A stretch of DNA of 64,000 bases from Botryllus schlosseri (taxonomy: Eukaryota). The translations under genes were made by a program, and so were the position numbers. A model generated the notes under the pieces. It was not told the origin of the DNA. It saw nothing but the letters and a program-made list of their open reading frames with translations, and did not search any database. The stretch is from contig CM119371.1 of assembly GCA_051294905.1 (NCBI GenBank), positions 11,658,001 through 11,722,000 of the forward strand, written 5' to 3'. Every line of letters begins with the position of its first letter. The first letter of the stretch is position 1. Shown one piece after another: positions 14,268-51,499 of the stretch.

Positions 14268-15568
14268 GTGCGACGCATTAGCCATTTTCTTCGAAAGATT
14301 AGAGCATGTGTAATGGAATGTACGGTGTGTAACGGAAAATAGATCGAATATGATCTGGAAAAACGTTGCTAGCATGGAAAATAGTGGTTTATTATGGACA
14401 TAGTGAGGCGTGCATGGAACATTACTATTTCCTGTTTTGTACCACACCATACTCTGCTGTTGTTATGTCACTGCGCTATATCCGCTCGTTGTATCCGTTC
14501 TGTAGTTCTCATTATTACGTCACAATGAGAAAATTCCATACAATATACATTTAGAGTTTGGTAAACCATATTAACTGACTCAGTGTAAAAGCAAAAAGTG
14601 TAATGAATCAAGTAATATAGACATATTTTTTGACACGAAGTTGAAGTTCTGTACTTCTAGAATCCTATCTGAATGATATCGCCAAAAAATCCCGGCAATG
14701 ACGTTCTGCATCAATCATTAACATATGTCGAAGTCGATCAGTTTGCCGCCATTTCGTGTGTTTTACGCTGTCTAGGTGAGAACGAGGTATCTTTCGTAAT
14801 GTCAAGTTATGCTAAGAACGCGTTAGGTGACACAGCATGCTTGAACGAGGGGATGTTAAGGAAGTTGAGCGATGACAAGACTTGTGTCGGCTACAGCAGG
14901 CGCGGTAGACAGGCTAATGCCCGCACCAGCACCAAACTGAACCTTCCACATGGAATATAAGTATAGGGCTACCATACGTCCTCGTTTAAGAGGATTTGTC
15001 CTCTATTTTTAAAATGTACTCGAAGGACGCCTAAATGTCCTCTTTTACGAGACATTTGGTTGGAATATAGGAAATCAGCGTCCAAGTAATGGTCCGGCGT
15101 TGTATTTATAGTCAACCGACCATGTGGGCCTATACCCGGGAAAAAATTAGCATTATTTCAGAATTTGACTACAGTATTCTAAGTCGGAAAATTTTGAAAA
15201 AGTGTACACTTTTCAGATTCCCAAAATATGGTAACCCTGATATATGATCCTCGAAATTTTGAAATAAAATGAAATTAAATATCTCAAACGCACTCGCTTG
15301 GATGCCGGTATCGTTGATAGGCTGATGAAAATACCAAGCATCGTGTGCCAGGCATGTCTGAAGGAAGTCTGACGCTGTTTTCAGTAATTTACATCTTGAT
15401 AAGGCCTGGGAAGACTACCGAATGACTTGACTCCAGACAATTTGTGTATATAGACTCTAGTTGCACTGCACTCCAGTCATTGCTCGTGACTCGAGACATT
15501 CAATATAACTTGATTGAAATCTGGTGTATTTGGATCTGGTCCAATACTTGACAAATAAGCCCAGAAAA

Positions 15569-18649: not shown

Positions 18650-21600
18650 ATACCCCAGTCGACTCCGAAGTTTGGGTTGATCCAGACGAAGAAAGGTTAG
18701 TAGCATTTGCTTCGTGGAGTAGATATACAGTACATGTCATTATACGATAGCTCTACCGAATCAATGAACTCTTTTTAAACTAAATTATCTCGTGAAGCCA
18801 GTTCCAATTAATAATAAGTTATGTTGCTCCATCATAAGATCAGTCACTACACGCTTTTGACATCCTACCCACTGCTTCAGTGCTTAATATTACCTATAAA
18901 ATAAGTAATTTGCTTGTAACTTTTTTTCTGTTCATTTTTAAGAGTAAGTTCTATGGAAGTGAGATAGAAACATGTTGCTTCTGCGTCTTTTAAGCCCAAA
19001 ACTGACTTTCTAGTGTAAGCGGTTATCAAGTTATTATGAAATTAGCTATTTTCGGATCGTTTGGTGAAATTACACGACCACTAGAGGGTGTACGAACACA
19101 TGCCAAGACCCTTTTTTGAAATTCAATAATTTTCATTTTTCACTCCACCCTAAACTCCAATACTCTTGCCTGAAGGTCTGTTAACAAAAAGACAATGCAT
19201 TCTAAAATCTGAGCTAGTGAAGTATTTCTTTTCTCATCTAGGATTGAAATATGTCATGTCATGACTAGAGCCCCCCCCCCCCCCCTCGATTATCAGTTTG
19301 CCGATAATAGCCACTCGATCTGACACTTTGCGAGAAATGTCGGTATTGGCCGTTAGAGGTCAAAAAGTATTGGCAATATTCGTTTACTTCCATATTGTTC
19401 AGATTCAGGCTATTTTGCTTTTTTCATGCCGTAGCTTGACAATGGTTGTAAAGCTGAAGGTTTTGAAGTGCGATTTTAAAATTGGATGTGATGTCGGAAT
19501 TATCGGTGAAGGTGTTAGGGCTGGGCACAATGATTCGAATATAAATTTTGATGATTCGAGTTTTTAGAGTACTGAAATGATACGCTCCACGCCACTGAAA
19601 GTCAATTTATCAACGTGAATTATTGTTTCGATACTAATTTTCACTTTTGAAGCCTTGAAACCTTGATTGGCCGTATCGTAACATACGAAACATATGGTAA
19701 AAAGCTACTGGAGATAGCACATTTCTGAATTCATGATCATCCCACAACATTGTCACCGAATGCAATGAAATCGGTATGGTCGGAAAAAGACCAAAGCATC
19801 TGAAATGTGATGGATATTCTTTGTGGTCGTATGAAGGGTACATATTTGAACTTTGACATTTTTCATTATGTTATGACGTCATAATGAGTGATATTCGATT
19901 ACTCGACGTGAAGCATATTACGTGATTCAGAATCGAATCACTCAGGTACTCGATTTTGCCCAGCCCTAATCTGATTACGGCGGGACTCGAGTCATTTATC
20001 ATGACGTTGAGAACACCTGCACTCATTCTACCGAATTGTGCTGTGCCATATTCGATTTTTCCATTCAAATTGAAATAAGCTTAATGTTTGGACAAGCTGT
20101 ACACTTCCACCCGGTTCAGTTTTGAGCTGCTTACAATAAACGAGACTTATGTCTTTCTACAGTTCAACGAACCCGCCAGATCTGGATAACTTGCTTGGCC
20201 AGGTCGTGGGTGATCTTTTCGGGGGTATGGGCATTGTGGCGGAACCTCCGCTGCAAGCGCAGCCATCTTCACTGCCTGCAGAGACAACTCCGCTGCCTGC
20301 AGAGCCTATTACGCGGCCTGCAGAGACAATTCCGTTGCCTGCAGAGACTATTACGCGGCTTGCAGAGACAATTCCGTTGCATTCAGAGCCAATTACGCGG
20401 CCTGCCGAGACAATTCCGCTGCCTGCAGAGCCTATTACGCTGCCTGCAGGGCCATCTGCGGTATCCACTGAGCCATCTTCATCGGCAGGGCCCCCGCTGC
20501 CCGCATTGGATGCCCGCAAGATGAAAAAAACACAAGAGGTGAGGTCTATTGTAGATTACTTTACCTTTTGGCAATTTTTAGTTCTCTCGGGCAGTGGTTC
20601 TCGACCTTGGCCCCGCGAATCATTTTCAGGGGGTCCACGAAACCTCTAAATTTGCAACACAATTCACAACGTAATTTGTAATTCTCAAAGCTAGGCAAAT
20701 TGTAAGGCAGTTTCGCTTCATAACTGCTAAAGCGTCAGGACTCACAGCAACTGAATGACCTTCTCCGAGGAAACATCCTATATCCTGTGCAAACTCATCA
20801 ATTAGTATGATGTTATTTTCACGAAAATTCATTTTGTGGCTGTTTCTCACAAGCCTATACAGTTAACATTTGCGCGAGATAGATGACGGTTGCACGATAA
20901 TTGGGCTAATTTTGAACGAATACTTGAGGTCCGCGGAGGTCTGTCAAGGTCCAAAAGGGGTCCACAATGACTGCGAACCACTCCCCTTTCTTCAAAACAA
21001 CCCCCTTTTTCTCGGCTGGCCAAGCGCCTGTTTTGTGGTATGTTCGTTTGCATCACCTCAAAGTATGAAATATGCTGCGAAATATATGTGTTACGGTAAC
21101 TAAATTTATTTTCGAAAATTACTACAAGTCATTTTTCGTTATTCGCAGGTGTGAGAATAGCCTGATCGCCGGGTCTGCCACGCGGCCAAAGGAAGAGAAA
21201 ACAAAGCGACGTTGTCTTTTGTTGGCGAAGACGCGCATAACCGAACAGCTTTCGAAAAGTGAGTCCCACAACAGGAGTATAGATTGCCAACGTAAGGATA
21301 GATATGCAGCTCCAGTTATCACGCACGCACAATGTGTTTGACTGCTGAGCCTGGGCAAAAGCAGCATTGTTGATAGTCCTATAGCTGGCGACCAGAGTGC
21401 TAAAATTGATTAAAACAGATCTTAATCGAAAGCTAGTGTTGCACTTTCGTCGAAAATACAAATTGAAATCTGGCCAGTGTATTAAAACCAGAGTTGGATC
21501 AATTGTAATTTGTAATTGAGCTGAATGTATTTAATTACATTTTTTCATGTAATTGTAATTGAAGCATTTCTATTTTGTGTAATTATAATTTGATCAAAAT

Positions 21601-24600
21601 TTTGCTCAATTACAATCTCAATTACATTTTCATGGAAACCTGACAATCACAACATAAAATAATCATTTAATTAATCAGTTATTCGTCGCACCAGTGAAAA
21701 TCTGGTACGAACCAGGACCTTAAGGCTTTAGTAAACAGTCACCACATGTAATAATTAGCCTATTTACATCGGTGTTCTATGCGTGCTGCATTATAACTAG
21801 ATAATTCAGTCACGCTAAACTATTTCCCATACTTCGGTAGCAACAGAAAACTTTGTGAATTACAATATAGGCTAAACCACTGGTTCTCAAACTGGGGGCG
21901 TGCCCCCTTGGGCGGCGTGAAAGCATCTGAACGGGGTGCGACGCTCCAGTGAGCTGAAATCTTTTCCACTTTTGGCCCGATTCACCTCCGTTTTGTAGTT
22001 ATTGCTTGGTGTATAGTCTGAATTTCGTAATGGAGAATGCTCTCATCAATAGTCATAATCTTCCATACCATCAAACTATATGTAAAAATTGCTAACTTTG
22101 TGGTTTTATTGTGTGCTATGAAGATAAGGGGGCACGAAATATCCACTGTCATAAAGGGGGGCGTGTCTAAAAAAGAACCAGTGGGCTAAACTAAATCTTA
22201 ATATTTCAAAAATGGATGAACAGCAAATAAACTATTCTGAAATCTGTGCTGAACTATTTCCTACACCACGGTCAAAGTTTCTTTTTTAATCTCTGACGAG
22301 TACCGAGGCTTGTTGCAACAAAAGCAAAAAAAATCATGTTTCCAACCAAGGCTTCATCAAACTTGATCACGCATTTGTAGAGATGCTGTCCCAATCTTAC
22401 CTCCAATCTTGGCCAATCTTACTGTTGCCAGAAACTTTTTGCACCCTAATGTTCATCAAATGCAATCTAACAGTTTTCGAGCAAGTGAAAATGTAAATGC
22501 AAACCAAAATATTGTAATTCTTCGTTATCAGGAGGTTCTTTCCTTTTGCATTTATTTTAATTTTACGCACCTTATCGGAATCTCGGAATCATCCTTATCG
22601 CTGACGCCCTACCAATTACATTTCCTTATCCTGACCTAGCTCTGAGTAGCCTAATCGTTTGGTTACATTTCATTGACTGTCCTGTAGCCTATTTGCTTTA
22701 GTCGCTCAAACCTCAAGTAATGAATACTCTGTTCAGCTTCTCGGATTCGGAGACTGCCGCCAAGTGGCTCCGACTTGGAAGTCGAGCGCATGACTGCCAG
22801 GCGAAAGACCAAGCGGATGAAGAGGCCCCTGTCGCCATCATCCGAATATGAAGGAAAAGGTTAGAATTAGATTACTCTGGTTCAATTAGAGTACTGAAAC
22901 ATTTCACAAATCAGATTGGAATTAGATTGTTTGCATTTCGCTCTAATTTAGTGAAATTAGATCGCTAGAATCATCAAGTTGTCCCAGTCTGTCTGAGACG
23001 AATGTGGTCATAATTGGCTGATTCGTGGATATTAACTTGAAATTAGTTGATAAGCCTAGACACTAAATTATCATGGAAGTGCGTCATGTTCTACATCCTT
23101 AGATGCTTCGTGCCAGCCTGGGTTCTTCTGATACTCATTAATCCAAGCAAAGTTACAATATGGCATCCTTTTTTGCGGCTGCCAGTAAAACTGACCTATC
23201 GATCTCGCATCCCATGACATGCCGTCTTATTTCTTGTCGCTTTCTTTTTCTATACTATATTCTTTACTTTCATTCAGTGTGCATGCCTACTCTTTACATC
23301 ACCTAGGCCAAGCGGGGTGTCTAATTCCGTAGACTACTTCTAGTCACTTCGACATCTTCCTGTCTTTTCGTTGTATCGCATTTTTTGTGGTGTATTGAAC
23401 TGATAAAATTGATAATAAACCAATGATGATGATGATGATGATGTGGTACGGATATAACACTGGGACCGAAAATTCTTGAAAAATTCTCATATATGTCATT
23501 CAAAAGCCGTGAACATTTTTCTTTGTGACCTTCAAAACGACCTATCCAGACCCAGTAATAATTTCTAAGTTGAAGTGTCGGGCCTGTATCGGGCTGTATA
23601 ACAACATATATTTTTCCTGCTTAATACCATGATTGAGTGGACTCTTTTCAATTCAATTACAAAATTTATAACGTGTGGGGTCGATGATGACATAGCCAAA
23701 TCAAGCAGCATAGTTCGACTAACTTATCATTTAGCTGCAGAAACGCGTCTACATACAGAGAGGCTGTATTTCATAAGCAACTACGGTATTTTATCGCTGT
23801 ACCGAGCTATTCGGAAGTCGAAATGTTTAGTTATGGACGATATGACTTAGGGTGGAGTGAAAATAAGGAGGGTTCGTAAGTCCTGACAAATGACCTAAAA
23901 CTTCAATAGAAATTGACGTTGGGGAATTGCCCATTTCGACAACTACTGGCAGTACAGTCATGATATAAAGCTCAAAAGCTGCCAAAAACATTATGTTTCT
24001 ATCTGTCTTAAGAAAGTTATGTCTATTGTGAACGCAGAACGAGTTATAGCATAAAAACACTAAAATTTTTAAGCGGGTAAATAGCGGGAGTAATGAAGTT
24101 GCATGTTAGTTGGATTAACACTAGAAAAGCTAAATATATCAATCTCATGTAAAAGCTCAATGTTTAGAGCTGCTACTACATCAATCTTTCGATCAGGCTC
24201 GCGGGCGACCCATCTAGTCATTTCGGGCTACCTGGGGCTCCTGAGCACGGCATTGGTGATCCCTTATCTGGTTGCCGGTGAACCCAGCCCTCGGTGAACC
24301 CAGCCTTACGAACGCGGCCCTCGGTGAACTCGGCCCTCGGGAAATTTTGTATTCACGGATTGAGTAAGCGGGGGAGATAACACGACGCTCACATACTCTA
24401 CTTGTTTATTTTGTGGTATTCATGGCGTTTCTCGAATACTATGGACCTCGGTGAATTCCGGCCCCGAACAATTTTGAATTAAAGCTGGGAGCTGGGATAT
24501 TAGAATTGGCGGAGGTATAGGATATGAGGGTTGGTGGAGGTGGGAAATTGGGTTGGTGGAGGTGGAGAGGGGATATTAGGGTTGCCGGAGGTGGGATATT

Positions 24601-27600
24601 AGGGTTGGGGGAGGGGGGATATTAGGGTTGGTGGAGGTGGGATATTAGGGTTGCCGGAGGTGGGATATTAGGGTTGCCAGAGGTGGGATATTAGGGTTGC
24701 CGGAGGTGGGATATTAGGGTTGGGGGAGGGGGGATATTATGGTTGGTGGAGGTGGGATATTAGGGTTGCCAGAGGTGGGATATTAGGGTTGCCGGAGGTG
24801 GGATATTAGGGTTGCCGGAGGTGGGATATTAGGGTTGGTGGAGGTGGGGTATTAGGGTTGCCGGAGGTGGGATATTAGGGTTGGGGGAGGGGGGATATCA
24901 GGGTTGGTGGAGGTGGGATATTAGGGTTGGTGGAGGTGGGATATTAGGGTTGCCGGAGGTGGGATATTAGGGTTGCTGGAGGTGGGATATTAGGGTTGGG
25001 GGAGGGGGGATATTATGGTTGCTGGTGAATACAAAATTTTCCGAGGGCGGAATTCACCGAAGGCTGGGTTCACCAAGGTCCGAGTTCACCGAGGGCCGAG
25101 TTTGTAAGGCTGAGTTCACTGGTAATCGTCATAGATCCATATTTTCGAAAGTCGCACGTCCGTCCCTCGCCAAGTCAATTCAACAATGAGCCAAGTTCCC
25201 AAGGGCCGAGTTCACCGAGCGCCGAGTTCACCGAGGGCCGAGTTTGTAAGGCTGGGTTCACTGGTAATCCCTTATCTAGAATATGGCTGTGGAAAGAGAC
25301 CCGAATGGTCGTCGAGCCCCCAATGTTATTATCCATTCACCATAATACGTATGTACCCTCAAATGTGTTAGCTTGAGCCTAAATCGAAACATCTTCTCAT
25401 GCCAACGTTTGAGTTAATATCTATTCTATATTTCCAAAGAGGTGACAAAACATTATTGTTTGGCTTGGCGTAGCTTAGAATATAGTACACGGCAAGAAAA
25501 TTTGGAACAGTATGACGCGGACTTGGTTACAATCCTGCTTGGAATCATGTATTGCAAAGCTACAAATTACTTTTTTGGTGTGCGTCAGTGATCATAATTT
25601 TGGAGGTGGCAAACAAGATACATTTTTTCAACTTTCAATAACTTTCGTACTGTTATGGCGTCACAATGAGAGATACTTGAATACTGGACTCGACTCCTAG
25701 TACTCAATTCAGAATCGAATCACTTGATGCAGTACAGTCATGGATATTAATTTTTCAATTTTAAAATTGACGTGCAATGGGGGGATGGCATAATTTGCTT
25801 TTATCGTGCCTGTTTACGATCTGCTGTGTTTGAAATGAGCTTCTCAACTAGCATTATTTTTTTTTACAGTGCTGCCTGATGGAAGAGGGAGTAGTAGACC
25901 TAAATCTTATGGGGGAAATTGTGCGATTGCCGACGAGGTCGCGGGTAATCTTTTCGGGGGTATCGGGATGGTGGCGGAACCTCCGCAGCGAGCGCAGTCA
26001 ACTTCGCTGCCCGCAGAGCCGGTACCGCGGCCTGCTGAAACAATTCCGCTGCCATCCACGGACACCACAGAGGCATCCTCAACGACAGCGCCCCCGATGC
26101 CCACATCGGATGCCGGCAAGGTGGAAAAAACACAACAGAGGTGAGGTCTATTGTAGATTACTTAACCTTTTGGCAATTTTGAGTTCTCCAGGGCAGTGGT
26201 TCTCAACCTTCATTTTCAGGGGCTCTACGAAGCCTCTAAATTTGCTACACGATTCACAACGTAATTTGTAATTTTCGAAGCTAGGGAAATCGTAACGCAG
26301 TTTCGTTTCATAACTGCTAAAGCGTCAGGACTCACAGCAACTGAATGACCTTCTCCATAGAAGCATCCTATATCCCGTGCAAACTCATCAATCAGTATGA
26401 TGTTATTTTCACGAAAATTCGTTTTGTGGCTGTTTATCACAAGCCTATACAGTTAATATTTGCGCAAGATAGATGACGGTTGCCCGATAATTGGGCTAAT
26501 TTTAAACGAATACTAGAGGGGGTCCGCGGAGGTCCGTCAAGGTCCAAAAAGGGTCCACGATGACAAAAAGGTCGAAAACCACTGAATTAGAACATCGTGT
26601 TTGCGAACCACTTCCCAATCTTCAAAACATCCCTCTTTTCTCGGCTGGCCACGTGCCTGTTTTGTGGTATGTCGTTTGCATCACCTCAAAGTATGAAATA
26701 TGCTGCGAAATATATGTGTTACGGTAACTAAATTTCTTTAAAAAAATTACTACGAGTTATTTTTCGTTATTCACAGGTGTGAGAATAGCCCGATTGTCGT
26801 GACTGCCACGCGCCCCCAGAAACAAAAAACAAAGCGACTTTGTCTTTTGCTGGCGAAGGCCCGCATAAACGAGCAGCTTACGAAAAGTGAGTACCACAGT
26901 AGGAGTATAGATTGCCAACGTAAGGATAGATATGCAGCTCCAGCTATCACGCACGCACAATGTGTTTCACTGCTGAGCCCGGGCAAAAGCAGCATTGTTG
27001 ATAGTCCTATAGCTGGCGACCTGGGTGCTAAAATTGATTGCAACGGGTCTTAATCGAAAGCTAGTGTTGCACTCGCGTCGAAAATACAAATTGAAATCTG
27101 GCCAGTGTATTGTAACAACCTCAAAATAGCCCGCAATATCTGAACATCGGGATTGTTCCTAACAATCACTCTGTTGAATTTTCATTGATGTGGTTATTTT
27201 GTTGTTGCGTCGTTCTTGGATTAGTTAGTTGGCCGCCGACCAGGGTTGTAATGACTCGAGTCGCGATTTTCTGATGACTCGACTTGACTCGAGTCATTTT
27301 CTCAAAATACGGTAATGACTTGACTCGATGGTTAACGTTCTCGTGTTCGAAATTTCATGCTGGTGACGTCATATTTTACGATACGATTGTCGATATACCA
27401 TGTTCTTTCCAATTATCTGCTAGTTGCTGACGATTACCCCAGATGAGTTTCAGCCTAAAATATTTGAATACTCTGTTAAGATTGCCGTACTCGGATTCAG
27501 AGATCGCCACCAAGTGGCTCCGACTCTGAAGTCAAGCAGATGCCCGCCAGGCGAAAGACGAAGTGCATGAAGAGGCCCCTGTCGCCATCATCCGATGATA

Positions 27601-30600
27601 GCGGGCCCGCGTCAAAGCGTGGTACACCTGAATATGAAGGGAAAGGTCAGAATTAGATTGCTCTGGTTCAATTAGAGTACTGAAACATTTCACAAATTAG
27701 ATTGGAATTAGATTGTTTGCATTTCGCTCTAATTTAGTGAAATTAGATCGCTAGAATTATCAAGTTGTCCAAGTCTGTCTGAGACGAATGTGGTCATTAT
27801 CGGCTAATTCGTGGATATTAACTTGAAATTTGTTGATAAGCTCAGACACTAAATTATCATGGAAGTGTGGCATGTTCTACATCGTAAGACGCTTCCTACC
27901 AGCCTGGCTTCTTCTGATACTCTTTAAATCAATAATCAAAGTTACAACATGGCATCCTTTTTTTGCGGCTGCCAGTAAAACTGCACTCGAGCCGCTGCAA
28001 AAACTACAATATAACGTACTCAATGTGGTCAATATTGGCTAATTCATGGATATTAACTTGAAATTTGTCTAGTAGTCTGTCAGATATGGCCCGATGCCAA
28101 ATGTGATGACAATGCACGGTTTTACAGTCACTATTGTATCGTATCCTTGCGATGATCGGATTCAATCTTTTTTCATCCCTTTCGATCATTAATGACATAT
28201 TTTCTACATCTTGCTTTTTTGATTTTCAAACAGCTATCAAAATGCAATGACGTAATTATGCTTTGTTCTTATAATAATTAACTAGACTTGAATTGTGACT
28301 TGACTTTAGTCACCATCAAGAATCGATTGACTTCACTCTAGTCAAAATGTGCGATGACTCGAAGGTGACTGACTTGATCCCGATACTGACACCTACACGC
28401 GTTCATCAGTCACTCCCAATTCAGAGACATATTCTAATCGGTGCAAGGTCAGGTAACAGTTACAATCTAGCGCCTGGATCTGGACGCTACAACGATAACA
28501 TTTTAAATTCTAGCATGAGTCGGAATACTGCCATCATGTGAAGTTTCCGCACAGATTGAACTCATTCCTTGTTTAAGAAACTTCATATCTGTTTGGCAGC
28601 TTCGCAGCCTATGGTGTCTAGTACGGTAGCGGTGCTTTTCAACGGTAGAATTGATACCTGAATTAGTTACAAGTACCCAAAACATTTAGTTACCACGCCT
28701 TTTCTGATCTTGGGTGGAAGATGAGTGTTTTTTTTACAGGAGACAACATATCGTGTACTATGACCGATGCTGGTATGACATATCAATCATGTAGCCTTGG
28801 AAATTCTGGACAACAAAAGTCAATTGCAAAACCATCGAAAGATCGCAACGTATTACGGAAGCCAAAAACAAGAGCTGCTGGGAAGTCGAAGCCGGCAAAG
28901 TTGTCCAGGTGAGGTTGTGATAAGTAGCTTTGCCCTAAGCTTTGCCCTGGGTTATAATCTTTCGTTGATATGACATAAGCTTGAAATGGCCGCTGGGGAC
29001 GGTAGCCTACAGTAGGGTTTATCGAAAGTATTATTTTTCTCAAAGTTTACTGACTATAGTTGGTAAATTGTTTGCTTGGATGATAAAATCTCTGACCATC
29101 AAATTTGACTCATTCCCAACCTGTAGAGGCAAAGCTATTAGGTGAACATTTTGGATTGTGATTTTTTTGTCAAACCTGTCTGGCTACACCGTGAGATTGT
29201 TAGGTTGTACGAGAAAACAGTCCAAAACAAATCTTGCCCAACTCCAAACTTTGGAAGAGAAATTATCAGGGTGGAAAAATTTGTATTTAAAGTGAATAGT
29301 ATTTACGTGTGTAATTACTTTGATTGCAGACCCGTCTCCAAGGCCGGCACAACACCATCTTCGGACGACAAACACCAGCAGGCAAGAAGGCGTAGGACAT
29401 TGGTGCCCCGGATTCCATCACCTGAAGAAGAAGGCGGAGGTCAGTGTTAGATCACGCTGGCCCACAGTAAGGCTGGACACAATGATTGGAACAGGGTTGT
29501 AACCAAGCCACAAGGCTTTGAGTCACAAGTCAATCTCACTTTTATAGTTTTGACTTGAGTCAAGTTGAGTCTTTTTCAATTCACCACCGAGTCAAGTCCG
29601 AGTTCAAGTCAGCGAGCAGAGGGTCGAGTCCAAGTCCAAGTCATTGTGTTGACTGCTCAGTTTCCAGTTGAAATCTTGTTAAACCCACTTTTTATAACTG
29701 TGGTGATATCGTATGGTTTGCATTTCTAATATATTAATTTTTCTCACTTTAAACAGTTTCTGGTCGCATTTTCAAGAGCCGGTACCAATTGACAAAATCC
29801 TAATAGCGTGGTTACTTTACTATTCTTTGAAAGCGCAATGAATCAGGCATGGTCGAAAACATATGAGATGACCTTTACTGTGATTGATGATATACGTAGG
29901 TGGAGCCAAACATCGTCACTCCGCAGCAGTATACCACTGTAATGTGTGATGGGTCGGTGACATGGGGTCAGGGGAGGCAAGTGAGGCAGTGCCTCACCGG
30001 TCTGCTAGATTTTGAATATATTTACTATCAAAATCACGCAACTTGCTTAGTTATTATTTGAAAATAAAGCATGAAAGGAGAGGTAAGACATCGGTGAGGC
30101 ACTTCCACGGCATGCCTTACCTATGATAGCGAAATTCAGCGTAAATATCATAGAATTTATAATAACTGATATCATTCGAATGTAATTGTCGCACTGATTC
30201 CAATTAGACTGCTCAATTCTTAAAGTATTTGGCGGTAACATAACGTTGCGAATTTTTAATTTTTAATGTCACTTCCACGGCAGTTCATTTCTCGTCGTAG
30301 ATCAGGAAGACATTGTGTATTTGAAAACTGCATTGTGATGCAGGCGCCGCCATGTCTCCTAGTGTCTTCGATCAATAAATGCATCGCGCAATTCAAGATT
30401 TCGTGGCGGGTACTTCAAATTCTGTAGTGATATTGGTCTCCGGCGCGACAGCAACTTAAATTTGAGGAAATGGGCCCGAGCCCCTAGCCCTGAATACGCC
30501 ACCGTATTAACATCTCAGGGACATGTTTGTACCTTAAGCGGTGATCAGATTCAATCTTTTTCTACCCGGTTCAATCATAAATGACATATCTTTTACATCT

Positions 30601-33600
30601 TTGACTTTCAAACAGCTATCAAAATGCAATGACGTAATGATGCTTTGTACTTGTAACAATTAACTTGACTGGAATTGGAATTGTGACTTGACTCGTGACT
30701 GGACTTGTGACTTGACTTGAGTCACCTTCAAGAATCGATTGACTTGACTCCAGTCAAAATGTGCAATGACTCGTGACTCGAAGGTAGTGACTTGATCCCA
30801 GCACTGACACCTGCACGCGTTCATCAGTCACTCCCAATTCAGACATATTCTGATCGGTGCAAGGTCCGGTAACACTTACAATCTAGCGCCGGGGTATGGA
30901 CGCTACAACTATAACATTTTAAATTCTAGCATGAATCGGAAACTGCCATCATGTGAAGTTTCAGCTCAGATTGAACTCATTCCTTGTCCAAGAGACTTCA
31001 TATCTCTTTGGCAGCTTCGCAGCCTATGGTGTCTAGTACGGTAGCGGTGCTTTTCAACGGTAGAATTGATACCTGAATTAGTTACAAGTACTTGAAGCAT
31101 TTAGTTACCACGCCTTTCTGATCTTGGGTGGAAGATGAGTGTTTTTTTACAGGAGACGACATTTCGTGTCCTATAACCGATGCTGATATGCCATATCAGT
31201 CATATGGTCTTGGAAATTCTGGACAACAAAAGTCAATTGCAAAACCTTCGAAAGATCGCAACATATTACGGAAGCCAAAAACAGGACCCGCTGGGAAGTC
31301 GAAACCGGCCAAGTCGTCCAGGTGAGGTTGTGGTCGGTAAATAGGTTTTGCCATGGGTTGTAATGACCTGAGTCGCGATCTTTTGTTGACTTGACATAAT
31401 TTTGGAATGGTCGTTGAGGACAGTAGCTTACAGTAGGGTTTATCAAGAGTAATTATTTTTCTCAAATTCTACTGACTATAGTTGATAAATTGTTTGGTTG
31501 GATGATAAAATCTCTGACCATCGAATTGACTCAGTCCAAACCTGAAGAGGTAAAGCTATTAGAGGAGAAAAATTATGGATTCTATTTTTTTTCTCAAACT
31601 TTACTGCACTGGTTCCCAAACTTTTGTAGACACGTCCCCTTTAATGTTACATTGAATAATTTTGCGCCTCCCTCATCGTCATATCACAAAATGCAAATAG
31701 AATGCTAGCAACCCCAACGAATGTTTTTATGGCATGGAAGGTTATGACTAGGGCGATTTTTTTTTACCTAAAAACGGAAGATTTTGACCTAAAAAATCTA
31801 AATTTTGACTTTTTTTGACCTAAAAAAACTGAAATTTGACCAAATTTTGACCTCACGTATGCAAATTAGGTGTTTTCGCACATAATGTTAAAATTGTAGG
31901 GCCTACTACTTATTTTCATTTCTGGTTAGAACTGTCTGTCCTTACAAAGTAGATTGGCCTGAAAAAATGGTATGCCTCAAAAACTGACAAATTTTAACGT
32001 AAAAAACTGGTATTTTAACGAAATATGGCCCTATGAAGAAGTCCAGTAGTTACAATACGTAGTATGGTGGAAATAATTCAAATTTGTTGTACAACGAAAG
32101 ATACTTTCCTGCATTCTCGGGTAAAAAGTATCTGTCCTTACTAAGTAGCTGGTCAAGAATGTAGAAAGAATATTCAACAGTAGCAGTTGTTGGCTGACAA
32201 TACTGAAGTTGTGTGCACACTGCTGGTGACACACCGTGTAGCTTCATTCTGACAATGTTGTCTATATCACAATTTTTCAGCTTGCGCTTCTTGATATAAG
32301 AACATGAATGTCCAATTGTCCAAGCAGTTTTGCTTCAGTTAGGATATTGCGGTACGTTGAGCATAAACCATGTCACTATTTGTTTCATTTGACCGTTTAT
32401 GATTTACAGTGAGCGGACGATGGGCCGTTTACAACGTTAGGCCTATAAATTAGGCTGCAAGCTGTAAAATATCAAATGATAAGTTCACCGACAGCGCAAA
32501 ATCTTCGATACAAACGAAATGCAGTGGTCAAAAAATGTTTGACTTTGTAAACAATTTTGACAAATTTTGACCTAACGCTACAATTTTGACCTAATTTTGA
32601 CTTTTTTTTACATGTCAAAGACAAAATCGCCCTAGTTATGACTGAGGCGATTTTTTCAACTAAAAACGATGGATTTTGACCGTAAAAATCCTAATTTTGA
32701 CCGAATTTGACTTGTCGTATGCAAATTAGGTGTTAGGTAAAGTTAGAATTGTACTACTTCATTTCTGGTTGGAACTGTCTGTCCCTACGAAGTAGATTGG
32801 TCTGAAAAAATACTTCTGGGACTCGGAAGCTGACGAATTTTTACACGAAAAACCTTTTAATTCAACGAAATCTGACCCCAGTGGTTACATTACGCATTAT
32901 GGTGGAAATAAATAAAATACTTTATGGTACAACTAAAGATACTTTCCTAAGATACTCCCCAAGAGCGGAGAAAGAACGTTCAACAGAAGCAGTTGTTTGG
33001 CTGGCAACACTGAAGTTGTGCGTACACTGCTGGTGATACAGCGTGTTGCTTCACTCTGACAATGGTGTCTACGTCACAATTTTTCATCATGCGTTCTTTA
33101 TATTAAGAACCATGCAATGCCCACTTTAGTCTTGCTTCGGTTAGGATATTGCAGTACGTTGAGCATAACACAATGTCAGCCTATTTGTTTCATTTGACCG
33201 TTTATGATTCACAATGAGCAGACAATGGGCCGTTTACGAATGTAGGCCTATAAAATAGGCTACAAGCTATAAAATGTCGAATGATAAGTTCACCGACAGT
33301 GCAAAATCTATGATACAAACAAGATGCAGGTTGCAAAGAAGTTTTAACTTGGAAAACGATTTTGACTTTTTTTGCCATGTCAAAAAACAAATGGCCCTAG
33401 TTATGACTGTTGATGAGATAATTCTCCAATATGAAATTCGGACTATATGGAGAGCAACAAGTATAAACTGGAGGTAAATTGCACAAAGCGCAAAAATTTT
33501 TTGCACTTGGCCGCAGCTTGGCGCCCTCCTTCAGATGCTTTCACGCCCCCCAGTTTGAGAATCACTGCTATTCTGGCTGCCCCTTGAAATTGTCAGGTAG

Positions 33601-36600
33601 TGTAAGGAAACAGACCAGAACAAATCTTGCCCTATTCCAAACTTCCAAGAGAAATTATCGAGGTAGATAAAATTATATGTAAAGTGAATAGTATTTACGG
33701 TGGTAATTACATTGATTACAGGCCTGCCCGCAAGGCTGGCACAATACCATCTTCGGACGACAAAGACCAGCAGGCACGAAGGCGTAGGACTTTGGTTCCA
33801 CGGATTCTGCCACACGAAGCAGAAGGTGAAGGTCAGTATTAGATTACCCCGGTCAACAGTAGTGCTGGACACAATGATTCGAACAGGGTTGTAACCAAGT
33901 CACAAGTCAATCTCACTTTTATAGTTTTGACTCGAGTCAAGTCGAGTCATTTCCAACTCGCCACCACTTTCCGCCCCCTTCAGATGCTTTCACGCCCCCC
34001 CCCCCCGGTGTCTTGTACGGTTGCGGTGCTTTTCAACGGTAGAATTGATACCTGAAGAACAAGTACTCGAATCTTTTAGTTACCATCCCTTTTCTTATCT
34101 TGGGTGGAAGATGAGTGTTTTTTTTTACAGGAGACGACATATCGACTCCTATGACCGATGCTGGTATGCCATATCAGTCATGTAGTCTTGGGAATTCTGG
34201 GCAACAAAAGTCACTCGCAAAACCATCGAAAGATCGCAACATATTACGGAAGCCAAAAACAGGAGCGGCTGGGAAGTCGAAGCCGGCAAAGTCGTCCAGG
34301 TGAGGTTGCGGTCGATAAATAGGTTTTGGCCTGGGTTGTAATGACTCGAGTCGCATTCTTTTGTTGACTCGGCATAAGTTTGGAATGGCCGCTGAGGACT
34401 GAGGACGGTAGCCTACAGTAGGGTTTATCGAAAGCAATTATTTTTCTCAAAGTTTACTGACTATAGTTGATAAATTGTTTGGTTGGATGATAAAATCTCC
34501 GACCATCAAATTTGACTCAGTCCCAACCTGTAGAGGCAAAGCTATTAGGTGAACTTTTTGGATTGTGATTTTTTTTTCACAACTTTCTGGCTACCCCGTG
34601 AAATTGTCAGATTGTATGAGAAAACAGTCCAAAACAAATCTTGCGCAATTCCAAACTTCAGAAGAGAAATTATTGGGGTGGAAAAATTTGTATTTGAAGT
34701 GAATAGTATTTACTATGGTAACTACATTGATTACAGGCCTGCCCGCAAAGCCAGCACAACACCATCTTCGGACGACAAACACCAGCAGGCACGAAGGCGT
34801 AGGACATTGGTGCCCCGGATTCCACCACTCGAAGTAAAAGGCAAAGGTCAGTATTAGATTACCCAGGTCCTCAGTAGGGCTGGACACAATCATTCGAACA
34901 GGGTTGTAACCAATCACAAGGTTCCCAGTCACAAGTCCATCTCACTGTTATAGTTTTTCAATTCACCACCGAGTCAAGATCGAGTACAAGTCGGATAGTA
35001 GGGGGTCGAGTTCGAGTCCAAGTCATTATGGTCATTGGTCAGTTTTCAATTCAATTCAAACCAATTTTTCAACTCTGCTCCAATGATATAGAATGGCTCG
35101 CATTCATAATATCGTATTTTTTCTCAGTCTTAACAGTCTATGGCCCTATGTTCCAAGTATCAGGATTGATAAACGAAATACCAATAAGGTGGTAACCTTA
35201 CTATTCTTCAAAGTTACAAATGTCTCTCTTGGCCGTCCCCGTCTCGAGTCATATGACTAGGTTCGAGTCACGCACAATGACTCTAGTCGAGTCGTGTCCT
35301 TTTATGCATCTGAAAAAATGACTCGACTCGAGTCACCATAAAATCATGACTTGAGCCGGACGCGACAATCCAGAATATACTGCATGTTGGTTTTGCATCC
35401 CATTAAGGTCATGTTTCACCGCTTGAAAAGTGCTTCTTGAAGGTACAGAACTTCAATACATACTTCAATAATTCAATTGAATATAATATTCATAGTGAAA
35501 TGAACCCGAATATTTTCGTGTGACACTCGTCAGGGTTAACGGTCTACTTTTGTTGACGAAGGCTCGGTCTGTGTATTTTGATAAAATTCACGCTTTCAGA
35601 CGTTTACCTTAATTTTCCAAGTATAGTACGCCCCCATGTATAATACGTACCCCTAAAATTGCATGTAAATTCTGTGAAAAAGCCTGTACCCATGTATAGT
35701 ACGCACCCTGCATTTCAGTACATCCATAGTTCCGATTTTGTATACGATGTCATTCTGTCTTGCGATGTCACTCTTGAACAATCATTACAGGACGATCGCT
35801 AATCATTATACAATTAGCGGGATTGTCTTTAAACAATAGTAGATAGCGGCCAAAGCCTGCGAGGTCGGCGGCGAGTTAGTTTAGGCCAACGAACCGACAT
35901 CTTGCGCTCGATGCCTATTACAGATGCGATTGCGCCTAGGCTAACGGTTATGTCATGCGACTGATTATGCAAGCGATTATATCATGCGCACATGGCCTCT
36001 TGTATATGCCATTGTTCGGGCCTGTCGTTGACGCGATGAATTGGCGAGAATTGCTGCGCGCGACTGTCTATTACTGACCTCATTTCGCTCTCGTACAAAC
36101 GGCAAACCAACTCAGCAGGAGATCGCGTGATTGTGCACACGGCACTCGTTAATTAGCAACGCGCTTCCCTTAATTGGCAGCGCGTCACACTCTATAATAC
36201 GAATTACTACCCGCGATGGCTGAAAGTGATGCGCGAGTGGAAACAAACATGAAGAAAGGTGTGATTTCAAGTTTTTTTATCGAGGGAGATTTTTTCAAGC
36301 GTGTTGTTCCCATGTATAATACGCACCCCCCGATTTTAGGGCAAAAAATCGTGTAAATTTTTGCGGATTATACATGGAAAATTACGGTACGTCTCATTGG
36401 TGTGTCTGGTCCCAGTCGACTTTTATCAAAATGCATCAACCAAGCGTTTGTCAACAAAAGTAGTTTTTGTGCCATCGAAAAGTAGTATAATGGACGCTCT
36501 CGTATGCGAAAATTCATGCTGGTGACGTCATATCTTGTGATACAATTGTCGATAGACCATGTTCTTTCCGATTCTCTACGAGCTGCTGACAATTACCACC

Positions 36601-39600
36601 CTGACGAGTGTCAGCCGAAAATATTCGGGTTCATTTCAGTATGAATATACTGTTCAATGGCGTGTTGAAGATGTGTACCTCCGAAAGCTCTTAGCGCCAA
36701 CGAGAATGTAATTTCAGCACTCGACTCGAATCATAAGAATGAATGAATGCTGTGTTCAGATTCCCGGATTGGGAGATCGCCACCCAGTGGCTCCGACTCC
36801 GAAGTCGAGCAGATGCCCGTCAGGCGAAAGATCAAGCGCATGAAGAGGCCCCTGTCGCCATCATCTGATGATAGCGGGATCGCGCCAAAGCGCGGCACAC
36901 CTGAAAACAAAGGCAAAGGTCAGTATTAGATTACGGCGGTCAACACCAAATTGCTTCTGAGACCAGACTTGTACGACTAAGAAATGTTCGGCTTTCCAAA
37001 TTAGATTAGAATTAGAATTGTAGATACTCAAATTATTTCTATTAGATTACAATTATAATTAGAGCTACACATTTTTCCAAATAAGATTAGAATTACAAGT
37101 AGAAATACATATTTTTTTCCAAATTAGATTCGAATTAGAATCAGAAATAAAGTTTTTTTCAAATTTGGATTAGAATTCAGGTTGGAGCTACACATTTTTC
37201 CGAATTAGATTGGAATTGGAGTTAGAGCCAGGGCTTTGGAGCCGGAGCTCTACATAAAATTCAGCCGGAGCTAGAGCCTGTTATTTGAGGAGTAGCTCCG
37301 GCACCAACGTATTTCATAAGATGCTATTATATATGCAACCACTACATCTGCTGATGTATCATAATTGAACAGCAGGCCTGAATTTTAATTCTGAGACAGC
37401 AATGGCATAGAATAAAGTGCGTTGTAGTGCAACTATGATGTTGTCGACAATTGACAAGTATTCATCATAACGTCACAAGCCAGCACGGCGGCACCTCAGA
37501 GATGAGCGGATTTGAAATTTCTATGTCCTAATCCAATCCGAATCCGAACTTAAAATCCAAATCCTAATCCATACCTTTTTCATATTCAAGTCCATGTCCA
37601 ATCCTAATCCGATTCCAAATGGAAATTCAGAAAAAATACTAATTGATGCAATGGAGGGATTCGGAAATTATTTTTCACAACCAACGATTCACTTGATTCA
37701 AGATAACTTAGTAACCATAAGTACATTAATAAAGTTTGTCGCCATTCGCCACACGACATTTCAATCCCCCAGAAAATAGTTAAATCCAATCCAAATTCTG
37801 ATCCGTTCTGAAAAAAAATGTCACAAGGCTTTGAGTCACAAGTCAATCTCACTTTTATAGTTTTGAGTCATGTCGAGTCATTTTCAATTCATTACCGAGT
37901 CAAGTCCAAGTCAGCGAACAGAGTTCAATCCTGTTCAATCCACTTTTTTTCAAATCTGCCTGACTAATAAAGAACAGCTCACATTCGTTATATATTCATT
38001 TTACTTAGTCCTAACAGTTTCTGACCCTGTTTTCCACGTATCAGGACTGATAGACGACATACCAATCATGTGGTGACTTTACTATTCGTCCAAGTTACAA
38101 TGTGATGTTTGTCTCGGCCGTCCTAGTCTCGAGTCATATGACTTGGTTCGAGTCATGCAAAATGACTCGAGTACAAGTCGAGTCAAAGCACAAATTGACT
38201 CAAGTGATGTCGAGTCATTTTACGTATTTCACTACTCAAGACTGGGTAAACCAAGATCGTAATTTCAGTATAATTTCGAAGAATAGTAAAGTTACCATAA
38301 TGTTATTGCTTCGTCTATCGGTACTGGTACTTGAAAATGCGACCAGAAACTGGTAAAAGTGAGGAAAATTAGTATATTATGCATGTGAATCATTTGATAT
38401 CACCAAGCAGATTTGCAAAAAGTATATTTGACTTGACATTTAATAATCGTAACTGAACAGTCAACATGCGCATTGACTTGGGCTTGACACTCTATTCTTT
38501 GGACTCGGACTTGACTCGGTGGTGAATTGAAAATGACTCGACTTGACTCGAGGTAAAACTGTAAAAGAGGGATTGACTTCTGACTCGGAACCTTGAGACT
38601 TGGTTACAACCCTGCTAAATTTACGTATATAAACAAGATTTCAAAGTAAATACATTTTTGGTCAGTTTATTAGTAGTTTTTGTCCACGCAATAACATTGA
38701 TACATAGATTTTATGGTTTAAATTCCTACGAACTTTTTGCAGACCGCTCAGAAGTTGGTAGCGGACCGCATTTGGCTCGTGGGTAGCATAATGCCCAGGT
38801 CCGTGTTATCATATGGTACCCTAGCAGTGGTCGGATGCAAGCCCTTCGCAGCTGGTTCTATTACAAATGTCATATTTTTCAGCATGTTCAGGTGAAAAAA
38901 GTCCTGAATGGTAACCAGTAATGCTGACCCATTCGCTTATCCCATAAAATCACGTGAAACCGATCTTTGGAATCGGTGCAAATGGGCAGAATCAGACCAC
39001 CGCCTAAGTCCATTTGTAGAAGTTAGCCATTCATGTAGGCCTACCCTATAAGATAGCGGTGCATTTTATCGGGAGATTTAATTCATGATTCAGACACTTT
39101 AGCTTACTCGAACCATTTCGTGCAGCCCTAGTTACCACGCCTTTTCTGATCTTGGGGGAGTCATGAGCATTTTTTTTACAGGAGACGACATATCGTGTAC
39201 TATAATCGATGCTGGTAAGCCATATCAGTCATATAGTCTTGGAAATTCTGGACAACAAAAGTCACTCGCAAAACCATCGAAATTACGGGAGCCAAAATCA
39301 AGAGCTGAGAAGTCGAAGCCGGCCAAGTCGTCCAGGTGAGATTGTTGTCAGTAAATAAGTTTTGACCTGTGTTGTAATGACTCGAGTCGCAATTTTATGT
39401 TGACTTGACTCGAGTCATTTTGTGTATTTGTGACATAACAATGAAAGGTACCTCGAGCAATTCAACACTGACGCGTGACACACGATTTCGGACAAGTTAA
39501 TAACATTAGCAACAATTCCAACATAGTTCGAACGAGCGTGTGGTTGATGCGGTGATTGCTTTCCACGAGAGATTACACATCCTTTGTAACAAATTCCGAC

Positions 39601-42600
39601 CCTTTATACATGGGATTTCCAGCCTCTGGGCCATAGCCATTGAGCTTTTTAAGGGGGTACATGGGAAAGTTAACAAATCTTTATCGCCAAGTGTATTTTA
39701 CAATAAGAATTTGCATGATTTTACTACTGTATATTAAAGATGAAGGACGAATGGTCCTTTGTATCACCTAACCAGCAATTACCGTCATTTTTCATGTATA
39801 ATGCGCAAAATTTTCCGATTTTTAGTCCTAAAATGGGGGGCGGGGCGGGGGCGGGTGCGTATTACGCATCTGTATGAGTCTTGAAAAATTCTCCCTCAAA
39901 ATAGATCTTGAAATCACACCTTTCTTCATGTTTGTTTTAATCGCTCATCACATTCAGCCATCGTTTCCAGTAATTTGTATTATAAGTGTTACGCACTGCC
40001 AATCAGCGTGAAGCCTGTTGCCAATTAGCGAGAGACGTCTGCGCTGCACCACAGCAAGCGAACTCCTGAGTGGGTTTGCCGTTTGTACAGGAGCAAAATT
40101 AGGTCAATCCTTGCCAATTTATCGCGTGTACCAATATATTTTAGGGTGCATACTATACATGGGTACAGGCTTTTTTCCCAGAATTTACACGCCATTTTAA
40201 TGGTGCGTATTATACACGGTATATACGGTAGGACGTTTTCAGAGCAAAAACAAGCTCAACCATTACTGCAGATGTAATTACTAATTTTTCTCCATCACAT
40301 TTGATGTGTGTTGTATTGTAGGGAAAGTCATTACAGTAGAGAAATTTGGATTTGAAGTAAATAGTGTTCACGGTGGTATTTACAATATCTATAGGTCCAC
40401 CCGACAAGCTAGCGCGAAACAGAAAAATCTTGGTAAAAGGAAACGCTCACCATCTCCAGATGATGGCTGCGAGATTGCAACCAAGCGCCGAACTTTGGCG
40501 TCCGGGAGGGCCAAATCGTCCAGGTGAGATGGGGCCCTGAGTTGTGATGACTCGAGTTACAATTTTTTGTTGACTTGACTCGAGTCACATTTTGTTGGAC
40601 ATTGAAAATGACTTGAGCCACATTGTGTATGAACTCGACTAAGTGATGTGACCCGAACGACTCGACTTGACTCGAGTCGAATTTTCAAAAGCGTAAAATG
40701 ACTCAATTCGAGTCAACTTTTCTATTGACTCGACTTATCGTCAAGTCGTTGTGCGTGACTCGAACCAAGTCATATGACTCCAGAGTAGGACGGCCGAAAG
40801 AAGAAATTTTGTTGTAACTTAGAATAATGGTGAAGTCACCACATTACAGGTATTTCGTCTCTCAGTCCTGATACTGGGAAAAAATAGGGCTTGAAGCTGT
40901 TAAGATTGAGGAAAAATCACGATATTATGAAAGCGAGCCATTCTATATCACTCGAGTAGAGTGGAAAGTGGGCTGAACTGGATTGAACTGAAAACAGAAC
41001 AGGGACCGTAATGGCTTGGACTAGGACTCGAGTCAATACACTATGTCTTGGATTCGACCCTATGCTAGATCTGACTTGGATTCGGACTTGACAAGGGGGT
41101 GAATTGAAAATGACTCGACGTGACTTGAGTCAAAACTATGAAAGTGAGGCCGGCCGACTTTTCAGTGTAATTTCGAAAAACAGCAAAGTAACCGCATTAT
41201 TGGCATCTCGTGTAGCAGTACTGGTACTTGAAAATTCGACCAGGAACTGTTAAAAGCGAGGAAAATTAGTATGTCATAAATGCGAACCATTCGATATCAC
41301 CAAACAGAGTTTAAAAAAGTAGGTTTAAACAAGACTTTAACCTGAAACTGAGCACTGAGCACTGAGCAGTCAACACAATCTCTCGGACTCGTCCCTCTTC
41401 TTGTTGACTCGGACTCGGACTTGACTCGGTGGTGAATTGAAAACGACTCGACTTGACTCGAGTCAAAACTATAAAAGAGATATTGACTTGCGACTTGGTT
41501 ACAATCCTGCAACAATGTCAAAAAGTTCAATTGAAATAGTAATGGTCTAAAACCTACCTGATAATATTTGATGTGATGTGGAAATAAGATTATATTCTTT
41601 GTGGTGGCATAAAAAGGTACATAACTGAACTTTTCCCATCATTCGTTATGTTGTGATGTCGTAATTAGTTATATTCTATTCGAAGCCTGATATTCTATTT
41701 CGAATCAATCACTCGAGTACTAACCAAGAATGAGTTTAACAAGACTTGAGTTTGAGACTTAACAGTGAACAGTATGACTTGGACTGAGACTCTAGTCTCA
41801 ACACTATAGCTCAGACTCAATCCCTTGCACCCCGACTTCGACTCCTACTTAGTCGGTAGAAAATGTTTCGACTTGACTCAGTCAAGACTGTAATAGTGAG
41901 ATTTAGTGAGACGTCGTCTTATTTTCTAGGAAACCCGTCGTAGCTGCTACCACTGTGGAAGAATTTCCAGGTAAGCTTCAGGTCTTAGGCCCAATTTTAG
42001 GGGATTGGAGATTAACCTTGGCATTAATATTCATGTTGTTCTTCTCTAATCCATATATCACGGGTCGCTATCTCGCCTTGTGGAAATGACCGTCTCACTT
42101 GAAATTTTACATGCAAACGTACCCCAAAAAAGTCAAAATATTCGTATTTTTTTTCTGGTACATAATATTGACCTTGTATCCCTGCTGTCACCTCATGGCC
42201 TTATTCCACGCAAATAATAACTGAAAACTCCGAAATTTCAATAACATAATGGAGCTGTGTGTTTTTTTCAAGTTACAACCAAAAGATCACATGTTTCGTC
42301 CGATAACCCTATAAAATATATGGTTTGACCGTTATAAAACATATCTATCTATATTATCTCTGGGTGAAAATTGACTTCTTACCTTTCAAATGTTTGATAA
42401 TCGTTTTCTCGGATGTAAAATTTTGTTACGTAGCATCACTTTTGCAAAGCTGAGATTCAGACCTGTGCTATGCTTAAAGTTTTTATTCATAGTCTGCCAT
42501 CTCAAGAGGTTCAGAAAATCGCAGTAAACTTACAGCGAATTGTTGACAAAAAAAGGGATTTTTAAAATTTTTTATATTTTAAAATCAAATTTCTCTGAGC

Positions 42601-45597: not shown

Positions 45598-45829
45598 AAT
45601 ATGGAAAAACTCCTGCAACCAATTGTCAGCACCTCTTACGCTCTGAACTTCATGCGTATTCAAATGCTTGAAGTTCAGCTCGTGATAGAAAGAAAGAAAT
45701 CAGAATCGGGACAAAGTAATTGCGACCAGCTGTATAAGAAAGATACGCTTGATGCCACAGGAAAACGAATTACTCGACTGAATTTCTACAGCTTGCTGAG
45801 GTATGGCTAGATAACTTTTCACTGCATCC

Positions 45830-51497: not shown

Positions 51498-51499
51498 AC

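What the first reader, a model, noticed from the sequence alone, without database searches (positions are those of the whole stretch)
25770..26140. Chimeric exon reuses the cupin exon's acceptor in a new reading frame
Seen: 25770-25930 is a copy of 45200-45355 (intron end plus cupin exon start), fused to a copy of exon 20163-20538 at about 25935. In phase 0 it reads CCLMEEGVVDLNLMGEIVRL (cupin). Entered in phase 1 from exon 22737-22859 it reads VLPDGRGSSRPKSYGGNCAI and runs in frame into the Pro-rich exon. Inferred: a tandem-duplication breakpoint joined the tail of one gene copy to the head of the next and created a new exon that can fuse both copies into one ORF.
Basis: partly seen in the sequence, partly recalled or inferred. 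Interest (0 to 1): 0.75.

Follow-up and report, generated by a model that had tools for sequence, protein, structure and literature searches.

The report
Hybrid exon in a CENP-C-like gene
A rearrangement inside a centromere-protein gene really did glue the start of its last exon onto a copy of an early exon, making a hybrid exon that fits the gene's reading frame, but whether the animal uses it could not be shown, and such duplication-made hybrids are a known kind of event.

Summary
The mosaic is real. 25767-25928 copies the intron end and first ~57 nt of the last exon (45195-45354), which encodes half a CENP-C cupin (Pfam CENP-C_C, E 4.6e-6). It is joined without a gap to a copy of exon 20163-20538 from its base 39. 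A raw-data contig of run X1 (probably the source sample) spans the junction with no difference. Entered in phase 1, the 271-nt exon is open and links a 786-codon stop-free chain of 18 predicted exons. Its acceptor has the joint T-richest tract of 1,599 AGs. Splicing is untested: two RNA runs gave almost no depth on any unique exon. Verdict: a new variant of a known kind.

The parts
25767..25869 (+). Intron end and acceptor copied from 45195-45297; tract with 11 T of 14 (parent 9 of 14)
25870..25928 (+). Cupin-exon-derived 5' part of the hybrid exon (copy of 45298-45354; 2 nt longer than the parent; cupin frame intact in phase 0; about 20 off-frame codons in phase 1)
25929..25942 (+). Junction zone; both parents match in part (9 of 14 and 8 of 14 letters), only 3 exact shared letters, no insertion
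   Evidence: spanned by X1 contig
25936..26140 (+). Pro/Thr/Ser-rich 3' part, copy of 20201-20538 with in-frame losses totalling 135 nt; donor at 26141, exits phase 2
26141..27983 (+). Rest of the duplicated block, with exons 26777-26886 and 27481-27645 (copies of 21149-21258 and 22737-22859)
20163..20538 (+). Parent Pro-rich exon; 2 nt short at the 3' end, exits phase 0 while the next exon needs phase 2
22737..22859 (+). Predicted upstream partner exon, exits phase 1
   Evidence: prediction only
23194..25766 (.). Spacer between the two blocks: repeats, including a 23-nt tandem array at 24488-25021; no clear exon remnants; weak hint of a 44049-type remnant at 25496-25537
28740..41970 (+). Amplified pairs of short basic exons and one short single exon, all phase-matched in the predicted chain
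43164..43254 (+). Exon that resembles the CENP-C motif by eye (recalled pattern); no Pfam or PDB hit
44049..44254 (+). Last predicted exon or exons before the cupin exon (probably 44049-44110 and 44168-44254 around a 57-nt intron); exits phase 1
   Evidence: X1 contig 44119-44506 identical
45298..45460 (+).

Best explanation
The gene is a CENP-C-like centromere gene. A non-homologous rearrangement inside it joined a point about 57-70 nt into the last (cupin) exon to a point 38 nt into the early Pro-rich exon (shown: the DNA mosaic). This is either an internal tandem duplication followed by loss of most of the first copy, or one replication event with two template switches; the two give the same product (inferred). 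The copied piece brought a ready-made acceptor. The exon now in front of it exits in phase 1, so the cupin letters are read off-frame as about 20 filler residues and the ribosome arrives in the native frame of the Pro-rich part and of all later exons (frame fit shown; splicing inferred). The piece therefore works as a splice adaptor, not as a cupin.
For: Mosaic and clean register. X1 contig of 1,097 nt, depth 7.1, covers 25700-26336 with 0 differences and 0 gaps. Run X5, from another study, holds one contig like the upstream block (26211-26401; the three listed variants are the upstream block's letters) and one like the downstream block (26981-27267, 2 differences where the blocks differ at 8). 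The left end of the duplicated block coincides with the junction. The chain 21149 to 44254 has 18 predicted exons, all phase-matched, first stop at codon 787. Off-frame 22-codon windows of this gene are open in 333 of 634 cases, times 1/3 for phase gives about 0.18 by chance. Only 2 of 1,599 AGs in 16300-45200 have so T-rich a tract, and 25870 is one. Exon 26777 can only be entered after a phase-2 exit (22859 to 26777 stops). The duplicated exons show purifying selection: non-CpG fourfold sites 8 of 39 changed, second positions 6 of 108, p 0.011. Fourfold divergence of the block (12 of 57) equals that of the copied cupin intron (20 of 101), as one event predicts.
Against: No transcript support: mean RNA depth 0.05-0.11 in 25700-26366, and 0-0.01 in the bin holding the last exon; none of the 15 joints shown (of 1,990) has GT..AG ends. 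The selection signal is weaker with all sites (p 0.066-0.070), is nearly absent in the hybrid exon's own 3' part (pN 0.165, pS 0.190), and does not say which block was constrained. Intron against intron, the cupin piece is more diverged (20 of 101) than the block (84 of 1,155; p 1e-4), which a single event does not predict. 22859 to 27481 is also in frame, so the exon can be skipped. The locus carries other frame lesions.
Confidence: 0.55

Rival explanations
1. The mosaic is real but silent: the hybrid exon and 26777-26886 are skipped (22859 to 27481 is in frame), or the whole locus is a decaying paralogue or null allele.
For: Three frame problems in this sequence: 20538 to 21149, the 2-nt loss in the last exon, and a phase-1 exit before a phase-0 cupin exon. 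No first half of the cupin found (0 CENP-C hits among 58 and 50 stop-free stretches). Almost no RNA depth on unique exons in two bulk runs.
Against: 786 stop-free codons with matched phases; strong acceptor; frame fit has about 0.18 chance. Only 6% and 13% of the RNA runs were read, at 90% likeness, and the tool may drop reads, so absence is weak.
Confidence: 0.25
2. The frame is not new. The gene had already stopped reading its cupin, and the last-exon acceptor was already entered in phase 1 when it was copied; the hybrid exon inherited that frame. This concerns the frame only and can hold together with the best explanation.
For: 44168-44254 exits in phase 1; an X1 contig at depth 15.9 confirms its letters. 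Two of its three copies in the window have that length. No phase-correcting exon was convincing among 5 candidates in 44255-45297.
Against: After the indel, 3 of 4 differences between the two cupin pieces sit at third positions of the cupin frame (2 silent, 2 conservative; too few to be significant). The cupin half still scores E 4.6e-6. An X5 contig fails to fit for its first 18 letters exactly at the indel, so other alleles may be intact (letters not shown).
Confidence: 0.15
3. Two separate events: an older 160-175-nt templated insertion or conversion from the last exon, and a younger local duplication or homogenisation of the three-exon block. No near-gene-length duplication. This concerns origin only.
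For: The copied intron end is the most diverged of 8 acceptor-side intron pairs (0.204 against 0.041-0.162). Only about 103 nt of parent intron is present. Other short copies of this gene's exons lie inverted at 48379-48972 and 51169-51499.
Against: It needs the insertion to land exactly at the left end of the duplicated block. The best non-self hit of a 44001-44325 profile in the whole window lies at 25496-25537 on the expected strand (E 0.31), a weak hint of a longer lost copy; pairwise controls do not confirm it (13 of 300 shuffles, rank 7 of 100 tiles) and it overlaps a repeat end.
Confidence: 0.2
4. Assembly artefact: two divergent alleles placed in tandem, or a false junction.
For: Intron divergence between the blocks (7%) is no larger than an allelic-looking bubble in X1 (48 differences over 38592-39107). 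No listed piece spans 23193-25767, which lay outside the stretch laid.
Against: The junction is inside one X1 contig with no difference. As an allele of 20163-20538 the hybrid exon would be entered in phase 2 and stop at codon 3. Exons differ by 14-16% with in-frame indels, whereas X5's contig over 27411-27650 differs at 9 of 240. X5 holds both block types.
Confidence: 0.05

Closest known systems
Recurrent exon-pair duplications in grass CENP-C (Talbert et al. 2004, PMC549713; passages seen)
   Same: Exon pairs in the poorly conserved, basic middle of CENP-C are repeatedly duplicated and deleted in tandem.
   Different: In the passages seen those copies are whole exons (one has an internal 14-codon repeat); none describes a hybrid exon built from the last exon and read in another frame.
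Chimeric genes from tandem duplications that ignore gene boundaries (Rogers et al. 2017, PMC5460883; passages seen: 76 chimeras among 1,116 duplications in D. yakuba)
   Same: A tandem-type breakpoint joins unrelated coding parts and makes a new structure.
   Different: Here both parts come from one gene, the join is inside one exon, and the 5' part mainly supplies an acceptor.
New coding sequence by frameshift (Wissler et al. 2013 by recall of authors, PMC3590893; section 16 read: 268 candidates, 2.2% of ant species-specific orphan genes)
   Same: Old coding letters are read in another frame.
   Different: Only about 20 codons are re-read, and the shift comes from splice phase, not from an indel.
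Cenp-C paralogues with partial or full cupin loss in Drosophila (bioRxiv 10.1101/134817; passages seen)
   Same: A CENP-C gene whose cupin is truncated or lost.
   Different: Those are one of two paralogues; here copy number is unknown and the lesion may be allele-specific.

Membership tests
CENP-C / Mif2 | C-terminal sequence of the CENP-C cupin type | tested here: met
   45311-45457: Pfam CENP-C_C E 4.6e-6, 27.2 bits (cut-off 29), profile 41-79 of 85; only PDB hit of 177,635 sequences is Cnp3, E 0.11; Atlas features all cupin, 0.90-0.94
CENP-C / Mif2 | Whole, translatable cupin dimerisation domain | tested here: not met
   No entry phase at 45298 reads the cupin; first half not found. Holds for this sequence; other alleles unknown
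CENP-C / Mif2 | CENP-C motif (CENP-A nucleosome binding) | tested here: inconclusive
   43164-43254 resembles it by eye (recalled pattern); 0 Pfam and 0 PDB hits
CENP-C / Mif2 | Long basic low-complexity middle region | tested here: met
   Predicted chain S 11.8%, R 10.6%, K 10.6%, P 9.8%; not diagnostic alone
CENP-C / Mif2 | Centromere localisation, N-terminal kinetochore binding | not testable with these tools
   5' end of the gene not resolved
Chimeric exon from a tandem-type duplication junction | Downstream sequence left of the join, upstream sequence right of it, duplicated block starting at the join | tested here: met
Chimeric exon from a tandem-type duplication junction | Junction present in raw data | tested here: met
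   X1 contig, 0 differences; X1 may be the source sample, so not independent of the individual
Chimeric exon from a tandem-type duplication junction | The whole interval between the breakpoints is duplicated | tested here: not met
   Only 20201-23193 and 45195-45354 are; 7 of 8 remnant queries at shuffle level, one weak hint
Chimeric exon from a tandem-type duplication junction | Spliced into mRNA | tested here: inconclusive
   Under one read's worth of depth per run in 25700-26366; the last exon is equally uncovered
Frameshift-derived coding sequence | Parent frame differs from the frame now used, and the new frame is translated | tested here: inconclusive
   Parent frame is the cupin; use of phase 1 is predicted only, and may predate the copy

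The most novel reading that the evidence does not exclude
This animal's working CENP-C has given up its cupin dimerisation domain and recycled the cupin exon's acceptor and first 20 codons, off-frame, as a splice adaptor. The hybrid exon is now the only in-frame source of the Pro-rich module, because the original exon is frameshifted and skipped (18695 to 21149 is in frame). The result would be an essential centromere protein rebuilt by exon amplification, with synonymous sites diverging faster than its introns.
Probability: 0.15. Interest if true: 0.7.

Novelty: new variant of a known kind. Interest (0 to 1): 0.4.

Why it matters
CENP-C is essential and usually single-copy, yet evolves fast; exon amplification in it is documented in grasses. 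If the hybrid exon is spliced, it is a clean, base-resolved example of how an internal duplication creates a usable exon by borrowing a splice acceptor and re-reading a conserved domain out of frame. It would matter more if the cupin is truly lost in the functional gene. If the exon is skipped or the locus is a dead copy, it is an ordinary rearrangement scar.

Tried and rejected
No whole genome is held, so copy number could not be checked. No RNA holder listed among indexed runs. Protein searches: hybrid exon in phase 1, longer proteins, 0 of 308 candidates and near lengths, 0 of 3; cupin half, longer proteins, 0 of 4. The representative search gave 2 hits, both unrelated repeat proteins by their names and sequences; rejected. 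Metagenome scans: 0 matches to a 27-nt stretch shared by both copies, 0 of 596 candidates confirmed. Pfam on 58 stretches (57 of the 106 listed plus the hybrid exon in phase 0; the other 49, all in 22860-25700, were left out) and on 50 stretches (49 of the 79 minus-strand ones listed plus one plus-strand ORF) found no first half of a cupin. The hybrid exon's phase-0 piece has no Pfam hit on its own. Atlas search of 44050-44253 was uninformative (recognition 1565). Positive selection as the cause of fast exon divergence was rejected: the excess is at fourfold sites. The idea that 25588-25724 is the duplicated block's own upstream intron was rejected: 71% identity, and the same repeat lies at 41588-41716. 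Cryptic sites that would mend the frames (21156, 45311, 45321) have poor tracts. Microhomology at the junction is only 3 exact letters, so no mechanism is claimed from it. A rough count suggests that the second haplotype of X1 may lack or differ over the junction contig (P 0.007 for 1,097 nt but 0.08 for 570 nt at 9.3% divergence); too weak to use. Paper searches: CENP-C with ascidian (1 paper) or tunicate (2 papers) gave nothing on such a gene by title or abstract start; one search gave 0 papers; some searches gave general listings only. Supplements were not read.

Full report
Setting. The window is animal DNA, 41% GC, rich in dispersed repeats. No whole genome is held. A plus-strand gene of about 21 predicted exons runs from at least 17451 to 45460. 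The exon boundaries were picked by eye from splice signals and open frames; none is confirmed by reads.

The observation. 25767-25942 matches 45195-45368 at 79.8%, and 25936 onward matches 20201 onward; the duplicated block continues through two more exons to 27983, matching 20201-23193 apart from insertions. In ungapped register the cupin-exon letters run unbroken to 25928, the Pro-rich-exon run begins at 25936, and nothing is inserted. Left of 25767 there is no likeness to the intron upstream of 45195; a dispersed repeat lies there. The stated translations are correct.

Is the parent a cupin? 45311-45457 hits Pfam CENP-C_C at E 4.6e-6, profile positions 41-79 of 85, just under the cut-off as expected of half a domain. 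Its only PDB match among 177,635 sequences is fission-yeast Cnp3 (E 0.11), and the Atlas lists only cupin families. The gene is therefore CENP-C-like. A review passage confirms the C-terminal cupin as the dimerisation domain (PMC9252888, passages seen).

The parent exon is 2 nt shorter than the hybrid just after the acceptor. At 45298, phase 0 runs into the same off-frame reading as the hybrid's phase 1 and stops at codon 30, phase 1 stops after 6 codons and phase 2 after 3. The exon before it exits in phase 1, and an X1 contig confirms those letters. No first half of the cupin was found. So this sequence cannot make a whole cupin; the hybrid exon holds the only intact copy of the cupin-frame start. 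An X5 contig fits the last exon only from 45310, with 18 unfitted letters before it, which hints at a different allele at the indel, but the letters are not shown. Also, exon 20163-20538 is 2 nt short at its end, so splicing it to 21149 stops at once, while skipping it (18695 to 21149) stays open. That exon lay outside the stretch laid, so this lesion is unverified.

Is the junction real? One X1 contig (1,097 nt, depth 7.1) covers 25700-26336 with no difference. X1 may be the source sample. X5, from another study, holds pieces of both block types; no X5 piece across the junction is among the 16 pieces shown of about 100,000. That both blocks sit on one molecule was not tested.

Is it spliced? 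Not shown. The one read-lay covered 25700-45699, so the 22859 donor was outside it. X13 (12.9 million records, 6% of the run) and X17 (10.0 million, 13%) gave mean depths of 0.05-0.11 in 25700-26366, 0-0.06 in 28368-29034 and 0-0.01 in 45043-45699; 98% of what was laid ran on into unlike sequence, that is, repeats from elsewhere. The gene as a whole was not detected, so this says nothing specific about the exon. Indirect evidence favours use: an 18-exon phase-matched chain with the first stop at codon 787; a chance of about 0.18 for the frame fit; one of the two T-richest acceptor tracts among 1,599 AGs; the next exon needs a phase-2 exit; and purifying selection between the blocks (non-CpG 8 of 39 fourfold against 6 of 108 second positions, p 0.011; all sites p 0.07). 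Against: the hybrid's own 3' part shows pN 0.165 against pS 0.190, and an in-frame skip exists. I put use at about 0.65.

Origin. The duplicated block starts exactly at the junction, which one breakpoint explains most simply. The unit begins inside an exon, so it is an internal duplication within one transcription unit. A plain tandem duplication predicts a dozen more exons between 23193 and 25767. Seven of 8 remnant queries scored at shuffle level. The eighth gave a weak hit (4 of 300 shuffles; best non-self profile hit in the window at 25496-25537, E 0.31, but 13 of 300 shuffles and rank 7 of 100 tiles pairwise). A later deletion or a two-switch replication event is therefore needed (inference). 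If the cupin was then read in phase 0, a plain duplication would have been a null until a phase-1 exon came to lie in front (phase 0 into 26777 stops), which favours a one-step event or a quick deletion (inference). Dating is mixed: the copied intron end differs at 20 of 101 sites, like the block's fourfold sites (12 of 57) but unlike its introns (84 of 1,155).

Comparison. Exon-pair amplification in CENP-C is documented in grasses (PMC549713, passages), chimeras from tandem duplication in Drosophila (PMC5460883, passages), frameshift reuse of coding sequence in ants (PMC3590893, one section), and cupin loss in Drosophila Cenp-C paralogues (10.1101/134817, passages). Searches for CENP-C with ascidian, tunicate, exon duplication or cupin and gene duplication listed no paper on this gene or on such an exon; the library lacks most subscription journals.

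Verdict. Observation confirmed; interpretation partly supported. Each ingredient is known; the combination in a CENP-C gene is unusual but involves about 20 residues and is unproven at the RNA level. New variant of a known kind, interest 0.4.

Noticed in passing
window 20163-45460 and 48379-48701: Duplicated exons diverge 2-4 times faster than their own flanking introns, mostly at synonymous sites and also outside CpG: 68 of 436 against 84 of 1,155 in the block; 44050-44109 against its inverted copy has 7 silent and 1 replacement codon while adjacent introns differ at 1 of 48 and 2 of 57. Unexplained; intron-biased conversion or GC-dependent mutation are guesses.
   Followed up: partly
window 48379-48972 (minus) and 51169-51499 (minus): Inverted copies of this gene's exons. 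The copy at 48449-48534 is 1 nt shorter and would exit in phase 0, the phase the cupin exon needs; its silent-change excess suggests it was once under protein constraint. CCAAT- and TATA-like motifs lie upstream at about 49150-49210 (by eye).
   Followed up: partly
window 45298-45460 and 44168-44254: The only cupin exon in the window cannot be read in frame; possible cupin loss, null allele or paralogue.
   Followed up: partly
run X5, record 12: One contig joins 38968-39252 in register to 34202-34434, so that allele of the 39182 exon has a 3' part like the 34131 exon: the module array is structurally polymorphic.
   Followed up: no
window 40395-40523: This exon also looks like a hybrid of the two module types (start like 29330-type, end like 28740-type), by eye.
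   Followed up: no
window 6-5018 (+): A 1,671-codon open frame with Pao retrotransposon peptidase, DUF5641, integrase zinc-binding and DUF1759 hits: a Bel/Pao-type retrotransposon.
   Followed up: partly
window 24488-25021: Tandem array of a 23-nt G-rich unit, about 23 copies, containing a telomere-like hexamer, flanked by inverted 16-nt repeats at 24276-24340 and 25041-25244.
   Followed up: no
window 11553-14269: Nested inverted repeats up to 634 nt at 97% identity; looks like a foldback or palindromic element.
   Followed up: no
window 51509-54901 (minus): Two diverged direct copies of a region with a zinc-knuckle hit (PF00098, E 0.0017).
   Followed up: no
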